A stretch of DNA of 678 nt from Escherichia coli (GTDB taxonomy: Bacteria; Pseudomonadota; Gammaproteobacteria; Enterobacterales; Enterobacteriaceae): NCBI RefSeq assembly GCF_003334335.1, contig NZ_QOWQ01000160.1; one strand, written 5' to 3'. The notes under the pieces are model-generated. The model had not been told where the DNA came from. It saw only the letters and a list, made by a program, of their open reading frames with translations, and searched no databases. Of the stretch, positions 1 through 678 are shown one piece after another; the stretch's first letter is position 1, and each line of letters begins with the position of its first letter. The translations under genes were made by a program, and so were the position numbers.

Positions 1-43
1 TACTCCGTGACTGCTCTGCCACCCTTTTTAAAGTGAATTTTGT

Positions 44-70
44 GATGCGGTGAATGCGGCTATGCGCACG
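44..70. repeat. Three imperfect tandem ~9-bp repeats with an ATGCGG core
   Basis: GATGCGGTG (44-52), AATGCGGCT (53-61), ATGCGCACG (62-70). The first copy lies within the inner end of the left inverted-repeat arm. Confidence 0.4.
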
Positions 71-84
71 CGGAACAGTTAAAA

Positions 85-105
85 CCGTAAAGTGGTCTTT
101 TACGG
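85..105. other. Short hairpin-capable inverted repeat (CCGTAAA, 7-nt loop, TTTACGG); on the - strand it is followed by TTTT
   Basis: 85-91 CCGTAAA pairs with 99-105 TTTACGG. Reverse complement of 76-84 is TTTTAACTG, giving a weak intrinsic-terminator-like shape on the - strand only. Confidence 0.25.
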
Positions 106-135
106 GGCGTAACGGGCATCCTTCTGTATTCCGGC

Positions 136-157
136 GTTAATTGTTAACTGGTTAACG
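136..157. promoter_or_regulatory. Tandem GTTAAC palindromes / three GTTAA repeats (GTTAATT-GTTAACTG-GTTAACG); candidate operator for an unknown regulator
   Basis: GTTAA at 136-140, 143-147 and 151-155 with 7-8 bp period. Two full GTTAAC palindromes (143-148, 151-156) are separated by TG. Located about 55-75 nt upstream of ATG 212. Confidence 0.3.
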
Positions 158-199
158 TCACCTGGAGGCACCAGGCACCGCATCACAAAATTCATTGTT

Positions 200-204
200 G
201 AGGA
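200..204 (+). promoter_or_regulatory. Shine-Dalgarno-like motif (GAGGA) for the 212-400 ORF
   Basis: GAGGA with a 7-nt spacer to ATG 212. Confidence 0.5.
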
Positions 205-211
205 CGCGATA

Positions 212-400
212 ATGGAAACGTTATTACCAAACGTTAATACGTCTGAAGGTTGTTTTGATATTGGTGTTCTGCTCAGTAACCGGGAGTTTACGGAAGATGC
301 CATTAAGATGAGAAAATATGAACCTTATCTTCTCAATGATAATTCCATACTTTCCAGAATTGCCCTTCTTGAACTTGGTATTATCGGAGAACAGCAGTGA
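212..400 (+). CDS. Hypothetical small acidic protein, 62 aa (METLLPNVNTSEGCFDIGVLLSNREF...GIIGEQQ); function unknown
   Basis: ATG at 212-214 is the first start after an in-frame stop (TAA 110-112). GAGGA at 200-204 sits 7 nt upstream. ORF ends at TGA 398-400, overlapping the next start. Hand count: about 10 acidic vs 5 basic residues. No homolog recognised from memory. Confidence 0.55.
   Translation: METLLPNVNTSEGCFDIGVLLSNREFTEDAIKMRKYEPYLLNDNSILSRIALLELGIIGEQQ
386..390 (+). promoter_or_regulatory. Shine-Dalgarno-like motif (GGAGA) for the 397-585 ORF, lying inside the upstream ORF
   Basis: GGAGA with a 6-nt spacer to GTG 397. Confidence 0.4.
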
Positions 401-585
401 CTTCAGCATTTGCACTGGTGATGACCGTTTTTCTTATAACGGGTGAGCCACAAAATGTGATTACCGGAATTTATGACAGTAAGTCATCCTGCATTCAGGT
501 AAGGGACGAACAAAAAATCCCCGGTGAATGCCTCCCGTTAAAAAAAGTATCGCTGAACCTGAATAACGAAATACCGGCTGGATAA
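397..585 (+). CDS. Hypothetical small protein, 62 aa, with N-terminal hydrophobic segment (SAFALVMTVFLITG) and two Cys; candidate small membrane or exported peptide
   Basis: GTG start at 397-399 overlaps the upstream stop as GTGA, a classic translational-coupling arrangement. GGAGA at 386-390 sits 6 nt upstream. Alternative in-frame starts are GTG 418 and ATG 421, neither with an SD. Stop is TAA 583-585. Confidence 0.45.
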   Translation: MTSAFALVMTVFLITGEPQNVITGIYDSKSSCIQVRDEQKIPGECLPLKKVSLNLNNEIPAG

Positions 586-597
586 CCCGCCAGCCAT
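574..597 (+). terminator. Weak stem-loop over the stop codon of the second ORF (GGCTGG, 8-nt loop, CCAGCC); possible terminator or mRNA 3' stabiliser
   Basis: 576-581 GGCTGG pairs with 590-595 CCAGCC; the TAA stop (583-585) is in the loop. Followed by ATATTAA, not a clean U-tract, so intrinsic termination is uncertain. Confidence 0.2.
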
Positions 598-678
598 ATT
601 AACGCCATACCAACGGATTAAAAATGCCAGCAATGGCAGGGATTCGTTCACCCTGAAATCTGTAATGAGGTTAAAACA

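What the first reader, a model, noticed from the sequence alone, without database searches (positions are those of the whole stretch)
397..585. Second ORF product looks like a small membrane-anchored or exported peptide
Translated from GTG 397 the protein begins MTSAFALVMTVFLITG, a ~14-residue uncharged hydrophobic stretch, followed by a polar region with two cysteines (C32, C45 in ORF numbering) and a KK motif. There is no lipobox Cys after the hydrophobic stretch and no positively charged n-region, so it is not a classic lipoprotein or Sec signal. It could be a single-pass small membrane protein. If the real start is ATG 421, the hydrophobic stretch shrinks to about 6 residues and this reading fails.
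Basis: inference. Interest (0 to 1): 0.45.

Follow-up and report, generated by a model that had tools for sequence, protein, structure and literature searches.

The report
Prophage ydfD-like small lysis-protein gene
The second ORF is a real, already annotated prophage gene, a relative of the E. coli K-12 lysis protein YdfD sitting just after the cell-division inhibitor gene dicB, and its oily N-terminus looks more like a buried beta-strand of a small soluble domain than a membrane anchor or export signal.

Summary
It is a genuine gene. RefSeq annotates the identical CDS as a "DUF1482 family protein" directly after dicB in a lambdoid prophage. It matches Pfam DUF1482 (3e-15) and phrog_1092 (1e-32), and is 48% identical to K-12 YdfD, the Qin-prophage "lysis protein".

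The start is GTG 397, not ATG 421. In relatives this codon alternates between GTG and ATG. It always overlaps the upstream stop codon, and a GGAG Shine-Dalgarno lies 7 nt upstream. K-12 has CTG at codon 9. Database forms of 54-55 aa are cut by contig ends.

The membrane or export reading is not favoured:
- The apolar core is only 7-11 residues across the family.
- None of 45 members has K/R before it.
- It is the most conserved part of the protein.
- Positions 12 and 18 covary.
- AlphaFold2 places residues 5-12 as strand 1 of a confident beta-beta-alpha-beta domain.

No localisation experiment exists for this allele. A published proposal of membrane association for K-12 YdfD could not be read here, so membrane association remains a live rival.

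This is an ordinary, already known gene of low interest.

The parts
1..24 (+). 3' end of the dicF small RNA gene; the window starts inside it. A T-run follows at 25-30.
   Evidence: Rfam DicF matches model positions 29-52 and is cut at the 5' end (26.5 bits, E 0.0015). The stretch aligns with the last 24 nt of K-12 dicF (L002 4383-4435).
212..400 (+). dicB, the cell-division inhibitor gene (62 aa). Its TGA stop is at 398-400.
   Evidence: PGAP annotation. NCBIfam NF049927 scores 111 bits against a cutoff of 100.
386..389 (+). GGAG Shine-Dalgarno for the second ORF, 7 nt before GTG 397, inside the end of dicB.
   Evidence: The anti-SD duplex is -6.6 kcal/mol for the 20 nt before 397, against -2.8 before ATG 421 and a window background of -2.6 +/- 2.5. 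GGAG or GGGG is kept in all 26 distinct alleles.
397..400 (+). GTGA start/stop overlap (GTG start of the ORF, TGA stop of dicB), the arrangement typical of translational coupling.
   Evidence: Read directly from the sequence. Relatives have GTGA or ATGA at the same place. K-12 has ATGA. Distant homologs have TGATG or ATGA with a different upstream gene.
397..585 (+). ydfD-like gene: a 62-aa DUF1482 protein identical to RefSeq WP_000199480.1.
   Evidence: It is 48% identical to K-12 YdfD over 62 residues with no gaps.
409..432 (+). Codons 5-12 (FALVMTVF). This is the conserved apolar core, predicted to be beta-strand 1.
   Evidence: AlphaFold2 gives E5-12. F5 and L7 are invariant, and A6 and T10 are nearly so.
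421..423 (+). ATG of Met9. It is an internal codon, not the start.
   Evidence: K-12 has CTG (Leu) here. It has no Shine-Dalgarno. The 54-55-aa database forms lie 6-12 nt from contig ends.
490..531 (+). Codons 32-45, bounded by the two invariant cysteines. C32 is in the predicted helix 29-38 and C45 in strand 43-47.
   Evidence: C32 and C45 are invariant in 45 of 45 members.
575..596 (.). Inverted repeat (CGGCTGG ... CCAGCCA) that overlaps the ORF's stop codon.
   Evidence: One search lists it only as a minus-strand terminator-like site. On the + strand no T-run follows it, so its function is unknown.

Best explanation
Window 397-585 is the ydfD-like gene of a Qin-like lambdoid prophage of E. 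coli. It lies in the early operon dicF-dicB-ydfD-exonuclease-integrase.

Translation starts at GTG 397. This codon overlaps the dicB stop (GTGA) and follows a GGAG Shine-Dalgarno, so the protein is probably made by ribosomes coupled to dicB translation. The coupling is inferred, not shown.

The 62-aa product belongs to the DUF1482 / YdfD / YebW family. Its apolar N-terminus (FALVMTVF) is most likely the first strand of a compact beta-hairpin / helix / strand domain. It is probably not a membrane-spanning helix or a cleaved signal peptide.

By homology with K-12 YdfD (48% identity), it probably acts in the cytoplasm as a small toxic protein. K-12 YdfD causes lysis of dividing cells when made without DicB, and it is reported to bind and block IspG of the MEP isoprenoid pathway. 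Gene identity and start site are shown here. The fold is predicted. The function is transferred by homology.
For: Identity and context:
- The window has 100% matches in E. coli chromosomes, with the same CDS annotated after dicB and before a 3'-5' exonuclease, DUF4224 and integrase.
- The order is the same in K-12 Qin: dicF, dicB, ydfD 'lysis protein', ydfE.
- It matches Pfam DUF1482 and phrog_1092, and is 48% identical to YdfD.

Start site:
- GTG and ATG alternate at 397 in 26 alleles, always overlapping the upstream stop. Codon 9 is CTG in K-12.
- The Shine-Dalgarno duplex is -6.6 kcal/mol for 397 against -2.8 for 421.
- Changes in codons 2-16 are mostly synonymous, for example 5 synonymous and 0 non-synonymous in L062.
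- Distant homologs start at the equivalent M-x-x-x-F-A-L-V with overlapping stops.
- The short database forms are contig-end artefacts.

Fold:
- AlphaFold2 on 45 sequences gives mean pLDDT 82, with 83-93 for residues 1-50, and elements E5-12, E18-26, H29-38, E43-47.
- AFDB models of other DUF1482 members superpose with TM 0.7-0.86.
- Positions 12 and 18 covary as G/F, F/P and C/C, ranking second by corrected mutual information.
- The N-terminal block is the most conserved part of the protein.
- None of 45 members has K/R before the apolar core, which is 7-11 residues long.

Function (literature on K-12 YdfD, PMC8835842):
- Expression causes lysis, which DicB or SulA blocks.
- It binds IspG, and ispG overexpression or HMBPP rescues the cells.
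- Tagged protein was purified without detergent.
- Deleting 1-2 N-terminal residues weakens killing.
Against: - No experiment addresses this allele.
- The fold is a prediction. AFDB agreement comes from the same method, so it is not independent.
- The covariation rests on 45 related sequences. The four C/C members may be one clade.
- As I recall it, Masuda et al. 2016 called residues 1-22 of K-12 YdfD a hydrophobic domain and proposed association with the cytoplasmic membrane. The paper is not held, so I could not check this.
- A 15,000 x g supernatant does not exclude membrane vesicles, and large solubility tags were used.
- Two invariant cysteines, plus an extra co-occurring pair in some members, would suit an oxidising compartment.
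- G16 at -1 and T/I/L/V at -3 resemble a signal-peptidase site, and some UniProt entries of the family are auto-named 'Secreted protein'.
- By my own count from the two sequences, the part after residue 28 has net charge +1 here and -3 in K-12. The electrostatic model proposed for IspG inhibition may therefore not carry over to this allele.
Confidence: 0.6

Rival explanations
1. The N-terminal apolar stretch anchors or attaches the protein to the cytoplasmic membrane, leaving the rest in the cytoplasm. This is the first reader's 'small membrane protein', and it matches the membrane-association proposal that I recall from Masuda et al. 2016 for K-12 YdfD.
For: - The protein has 16 uncharged residues at the very N-terminus.
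- An 11-residue window has a mean Kyte-Doolittle score of 2.81. K-12 YdfD reaches 2.00 over 19 residues.
- A three-stranded sheet with one helix would leave an apolar face free to bind lipid or a partner (inference).
- The lysis phenotype concerns the envelope (PMC8835842).
Against: - The stretch is too short for a canonical helix. The 19-residue Kyte-Doolittle window scores 1.39, and a plain sum of the Hessa scale over 19 residues is about +7 kcal/mol.
- Family cores are 7-11 residues, and only 6 of 45 members pass 1.6.
- Sequence conservation is high and residue-specific.
- The stretch is predicted as a beta-strand paired with 18-26.
- The flank after it is acidic, not positive.
- The K-12 protein was handled without detergent, and its reported target is a soluble enzyme.
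Confidence: 0.25
2. The first 16 residues are an unusual Sec signal peptide, cleaved after G16. This would release a 46-residue periplasmic peptide stabilised by a C32-C45 disulfide.
For: - The apolar core length of 7-11 residues fits a signal h-region.
- G16 is invariant, position 14 is T/I/L/V, and position 17 is D/E.
- Two cysteines are invariant.
- Some family members are auto-annotated 'Secreted protein'.
Against: - No K/R occurs in the n-region of any of 45 members.
- The supposed signal is the best-conserved block and covaries with the 'mature' part at positions 12-18.
- AlphaFold2 builds it into the fold with pLDDT above 83.
- N-terminally tagged K-12 YdfD still binds IspG through residues 1-28. 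Cys mutants keep binding.
- IspG is cytoplasmic.
Confidence: 0.07
3. Translation starts at ATG 421, giving a 54-aa protein without the apolar stretch.
For: - ATG is a stronger start codon than GTG.
- Databases hold 54-55-aa versions.
Against: - Those versions begin 6-12 nt from contig ends.
- K-12 has CTG at this codon.
- ATG 421 has no Shine-Dalgarno (-2.8 kcal/mol).
- Codons 2-8 are under purifying selection and hold invariant F5 and L7.
- 397 alternates GTG/ATG and is always a start codon.
Confidence: 0.04

Closest known systems
YdfD (b1576), lysis protein of the Qin cryptic prophage of E. coli K-12
   Same: - It is nearly the same length (63 against 62 aa) and aligns without gaps at 48% identity.
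- Both belong to Pfam DUF1482.
- The position is the same: 4-nt overlap with the dicB stop, and upstream of the ydfE-type exonuclease.
- Both have the same invariant F5, L7, G16, C32, C45 and P47.
   Different: - About half the residues differ.
- The start codon is GTG here and ATG in K-12.
- Codon 9 is Met here and Leu in K-12.
- The part after residue 28 has net charge +1 here (KK at 49-50, R36) and -3 in K-12.
- Lysis and IspG binding have been tested only for the K-12 protein (PMC8835842).
YebW (b1837), a chromosomal DUF1482 protein of E. coli K-12 of unknown function
   Same: It shares the family and the core FALV...G...C...C-P pattern.
   Different: - It is only 26% identical.
- It lacks the first three residues.
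- It carries an extra Cys pair at the positions equivalent to 12 and 18.
- It lies outside any annotated prophage, next to pphA.
Single-gene lysis proteins of small phages (phiX174 E, Q-beta A2, LysM)
   Same: They are small phage proteins that cause lysis by blocking a step in envelope precursor supply rather than by degrading the wall. PMC8835842 draws this comparison itself.
   Different: - There is no sequence or fold relationship.
- phiX174 E and LysM are membrane proteins with true transmembrane helices.
- This gene sits in a prophage early operon, not in a lysis role for a small phage.
Phage holins and the late lysis cassette
   Same: They are small phage proteins linked to lysis.
   Different: - Holins have one to three full-length transmembrane helices and lie with endolysin and spanin genes in the late operon.
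- This gene lies between the immunity region and the recombination/integration genes.
- No transmembrane helix is predicted here.

Membership tests
DUF1482 / YdfD family | Match to Pfam PF07358 over the full domain | tested here: met
   E 3e-15, residues 4-61 on model positions 1-57 of 57. Also phrog_1092 at 1e-32.
DUF1482 / YdfD family | Conserved core residues (F5, L7, G16, C32, C45, P47) | tested here: met
   All are present in the window protein and invariant in 45 aligned members.
DUF1482 / YdfD family | Prophage early-operon position: after a small gene with overlapping stop/start, before a RecE/YdfE-type exonuclease | tested here: met
   Seen in the window locus, K-12 and distant homologs L084 and L085.
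DUF1482 / YdfD family | Lysis on expression, prevented by DicB or SulA | not testable with these tools
   Reported only for K-12 YdfD (PMC8835842, citing Masuda 2016).
DUF1482 / YdfD family | Binding and inhibition of IspG | not testable with these tools
   Reported for K-12 YdfD. The differing charge of the C-terminal part in this allele makes transfer of this function uncertain.
Single-pass helical membrane protein | Apolar segment long enough to span the bilayer (about 18-21 residues) | tested here: not met
   The longest uncharged run is 16 residues, and the 19-residue Kyte-Doolittle window scores 1.39, below 1.6. Family cores are 7-11 residues, and 6 of 45 pass 1.6. TMHMM and DeepTMHMM were not available.
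Single-pass helical membrane protein | Segment predicted as a helix | tested here: not met
   AlphaFold2 gives strand 5-12 paired with 18-26, with pLDDT 83-91.
Sec signal peptide (signal peptidase I type) | Positively charged n-region | tested here: not met
   No K/R occurs before the first acidic residue in any of 45 members.
Sec signal peptide (signal peptidase I type) | Apolar h-region of 7-15 residues, with small or neutral residues at -3 and -1 | tested here: inconclusive
   The core is 7-11 residues. G16 is invariant and position 14 is T/I/L/V. This is compatible with a signal, but SignalP was not available.
Sec signal peptide (signal peptidase I type) | Signal evolves more freely than the mature part | tested here: not met
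   Mean column entropy is 0.99 for residues 2-16, against 1.44 for 17-47 and 1.52 for 48-62.
Bacterial lipoprotein | Lipobox ending in Cys directly after the apolar stretch | tested here: not met
   The sequence reads ...FLITGEP, and the first Cys is residue 32.
Holin | One or more transmembrane helices and a place in the late lysis cassette | tested here: not met
   No transmembrane helix is predicted. The neighbours are dicB, an exonuclease and an integrase.

The most novel reading that the evidence does not exclude
DUF1482 proteins might not be simple cytoplasmic enzyme inhibitors. They could be small beta-rich proteins that reach or cross the inner membrane without a canonical signal, for example by inserting the conserved apolar hairpin. 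Their invariant cysteines would then form a disulfide outside the cytoplasm. In that case lysis would come from action at the envelope rather than from IspG inhibition, and the charge-reversed allele in this window would have a different target from K-12 YdfD.
Probability: 0.07. Interest if true: 0.6.

Novelty: already known. Interest (0 to 1): 0.15.

Why it matters
The gene matters mainly for annotation. It confirms the GTG start and the coupling to dicB. It also shows that an apolar N-terminus on a small protein should not be read as a membrane anchor without checking length, family conservation and predicted fold.

One smaller point could interest people who work on prophage toxins. The predicted fold puts the 'hydrophobic N-terminal domain' of YdfD-type lysis proteins inside a beta-sheet. 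That fits the report that residues 1-28 bind IspG, and it is at odds with the membrane-association idea as I recall it. In addition, the common allele seen here lacks the negative C-terminal charge that was invoked for IspG inhibition.

Tried and rejected
- Masuda et al. 2016 (PMC5975272), the paper most relevant to the membrane question, is not held. Its content is cited only from memory and through PMC8835842.
- Full-text searches for 'DUF1482' found nothing. Searches for 'YebW' and for 'ydfD' with 'transmembrane' gave nothing useful.
- NCBIfam has no model for the ORF, and PADLOC has none for either protein.
- The PDB sequence search found no relative (best E 0.9).
- Foldseek against BFVD gave nothing below E 0.01. 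Foldseek against AFDB50 returned only the family itself at E below 0.001.
- In the representative search, large repeat proteins (P0103, P0107, P0108, P0124) matched through many short repeats. I set them aside as spurious.
- The promoter scan found no sigma-70-like site in the window.
- I rejected the idea that the 54-55-aa database entries support ATG 421. They are contig-end truncations.
- I rejected a chance ORF.

Full report
**1. What is in the window.**

The 678-base window contains, on the + strand, these features:
- the last 24 nt of the small RNA gene dicF (Rfam partial match);
- a leader region;
- dicB at 212-400 (NCBIfam NF049927, 111 bits);
- the ORF of the finding at 397-585.

The whole window is 100% identical to chromosomal prophage regions of several E. 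coli strains. It matches over at least 80% of its length in 998 of 5,426 complete genomes. It is about 96% identical to 'PPompW' and Stx2a-associated prophage records.

In one identical genome, PGAP annotates dicB and, at exactly 397-585, a 'DUF1482 family protein' (WP_000199480.1). A 3'-5' exonuclease, a DUF4224 protein and an integrase follow it. A repressor-type immunity region and replication genes lie upstream. This is the early operon of a lambdoid prophage. K-12 Qin has the same order: dicF, dicB, ydfD ('lysis protein'), ydfE.

**2. The observation.**

- the GTG start and the product MTSAFALVMTVFLITGEP...;
- 16 uncharged residues before E17;
- C32, C45 and K49-K50;
- no lipobox and no basic residue at the N-terminus.

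The ORF is a real gene:
- It matches Pfam PF07358 at 3e-15 over the full model and phrog_1092 at 1e-32.
- 102 close relatives and 599 profile matches exist in the protein collection.
- pN/pS between alleles is 0.23-0.39.
- It is 48% identical, without gaps, to K-12 YdfD.

**3. The start codon.**

I extracted the region from 80 viral-contig loci, K-12 and the window, which gave 26 distinct alleles.

- The codon aligned with 397 is always GTG or ATG.
- It always overlaps the stop of the upstream gene (GTGA or ATGA).
- GGAG or GGGG always lies 7-8 nt upstream.
- The anti-Shine-Dalgarno duplex is -6.6 kcal/mol before 397 and -2.8 before 421. The window background is -2.6 +/- 2.5.
- K-12 ydfD has CTG at codon 9, so ATG 421 is not a conserved start.
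- Changes in codons 2-16 are mostly synonymous, and F5 and L7 are invariant in the family.
- Distant homologs (34-40% identity) also start at M-x-x-x-F-A-L-V with TGATG or ATGA overlaps, although their upstream gene is unrelated to dicB.
- The 54-55-aa database entries that seem to start at Met8 or Met9 begin 6-12 nt from contig ends, so they are assembly truncations.

The start at 397 is therefore well supported. Translational coupling to dicB is a reasonable inference from the overlap, but it was not tested.

**4. Membrane anchor, signal peptide or beta-strand?**

*Hydropathy.* The best 11-residue window is strongly apolar (Kyte-Doolittle 2.81). The best 19-residue window scores only 1.39, below the usual 1.6 threshold. 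A plain sum of the Hessa scale over 19 residues is about +7 kcal/mol. Across 45 non-redundant family members:
- the apolar core is 7-11 residues;
- only 6 reach 1.6;
- none has K/R before the first acidic residue.

*Conservation.* Residues 2-16 are the most conserved block, with mean column entropy 0.99 against 1.44 and 1.52 for the rest. This is the opposite of what anchors and signal peptides usually show.

*Covariation.* Positions 12 and 18 covary as G with F, F with P, and C with C. The pair ranks second of all pairs at least 4 residues apart by corrected mutual information. This is expected if they face each other across a hairpin turn.

*Structure prediction.* AlphaFold2 on this alignment gives mean pLDDT 82, with 83-93 for the first fifty residues. 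The elements are strands 5-12 and 18-26, helix 29-38 and strand 43-47. AFDB models of other family members superpose at TM 0.7-0.86.

*Literature on K-12 YdfD (PMC8835842).*
- His-, GST- and MBP-tagged protein was purified from a detergent-free supernatant.
- Residues 1-28 bind the cytoplasmic enzyme IspG.
- Removing one or two N-terminal residues already weakens killing.
- Cys mutants still bind IspG.

Together these favour a soluble domain in which the apolar stretch is strand 1.

*Evidence on the other side.*
- I recall that Masuda et al. 2016 described a hydrophobic 22-residue N-terminal domain and proposed association with the cytoplasmic membrane. The paper could not be read here.
- A 15,000 x g supernatant still contains membrane vesicles.
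- The G16 / position-14 pattern resembles a signal-peptidase site.
- The invariant cysteines would suit a disulfide.
- Some UniProt entries of the family are auto-named 'Secreted protein'.

My estimates are about 0.6-0.65 for the soluble beta-strand reading, 0.25 for some form of membrane association and 0.07 for export.

**5. How it most likely works.**

*Shown here:* the gene, its start, its family and its operon position.

*Predicted:* the beta-beta-alpha-beta fold.

*Transferred from K-12 YdfD (PMC8835842):* when expressed, the protein lyses dividing cells. Co-expression of DicB or SulA prevents lysis. It binds IspG, and ispG overexpression or HMBPP rescues the cells. The proposed mechanism is a block of isoprenoid supply, and hence of undecaprenyl phosphate supply.

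The overlap with dicB would ensure that the lysis-prone protein is made together with the division inhibitor that blocks its effect. This is my inference.

One caveat applies. By my own count from the two sequences, the part after residue 28 has net charge +1 in this allele and -3 in K-12. PMC8835842 suggested that a negatively charged C-terminal domain competes with substrate on IspG, and that detail may not hold for this allele.

**6. Comparison with known families, and novelty.**

The protein passes every sequence and context test for the DUF1482 / YdfD family. It fails the testable criteria for a helical single-pass membrane protein, a lipoprotein and a holin. It fails two of three criteria for a Sec signal peptide.

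In action it resembles the single-gene lysis proteins of small phages, but it is unrelated to them. The identical protein is already in RefSeq, and a 48%-identical homolog has been characterised. The finding is therefore already known and of low interest.

The only mildly new points are:
- the predicted fold places the 'hydrophobic domain' inside a sheet;
- this common allele has a differently charged C-terminal part.

**7. What would settle it.**

The decisive work would be signal and transmembrane predictors on the family, fractionation with carbonate extraction, PhoA and GFP fusions, thiol-state assays, start-codon mutagenesis, and lysis-rescue tests with DicB, IspG and HMBPP for this allele. 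Details are in the decisive next steps field.

Noticed in passing
window 1-30: The window begins inside dicF. Its first 24 nt are the 3' stem of the DicF sRNA, followed by a T-run (Rfam partial hit; K-12 alignment).
   Followed up: partly
window 22-244 (+): The dicB leader matches Rfam STnc100 (RF02076) over the full model, at 36.8 bits (below the gathering score of 47) and E 2.3e-6. The leader between dicF and dicB may be a conserved structured RNA.
   Followed up: no
window 575-596: A 7-bp GC-rich inverted repeat overlaps the stop codon of the ydfD-like ORF. It scores as terminator-like only on the minus strand, and no T-run follows it on the + strand.
   Followed up: no
window 667-678: The window ends 2 nt before the start of the next gene, a YdfE-type 3'-5' exonuclease of 823 aa at window position 681. 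GAGG at 668-671 is its likely Shine-Dalgarno.
   Followed up: partly
protein positions 12 and 18 (window 430-432 and 448-450); alignment A3: These two positions covary across the family as G/F, F/P and C/C. Four members, including chromosomal YebW, have an extra cysteine pair here, giving four cysteines in all. This could be a second disulfide or a metal site.
   Followed up: partly
protein residues 29-62 (window 481-582) compared with K-12 YdfD (L002 4879-4983): The net charge of the C-terminal part is +1 in this allele (R36, K49, K50) and -3 in K-12 YdfD. The family has two allele groups in E. coli: PLKKVSLNLNN-type and PVDKVIHQDN-type.
   Followed up: partly
L084 4798-5001 and L085 4879-5004: In distant DUF1482 loci the upstream overlapping gene is not dicB. 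It is an unrelated small ORF (phrog_3722, or phrog_22279/phrog_31129, all of unknown function). The stop/start overlap is kept whatever the partner.
   Followed up: partly
L087-L089, position 6-12: Database DUF1482 proteins of 54-55 aa (for example P0079, seen on more than 100 contigs) come from genes cut by contig ends. Assemblies apparently often break in this repeated prophage region.
   Followed up: yes
L083 7122-7313 (K-12 yebW): E. coli K-12 carries a second DUF1482 gene, yebW. It lies outside any annotated prophage, next to pphA and yebV, and its function is unknown.
   Followed up: no
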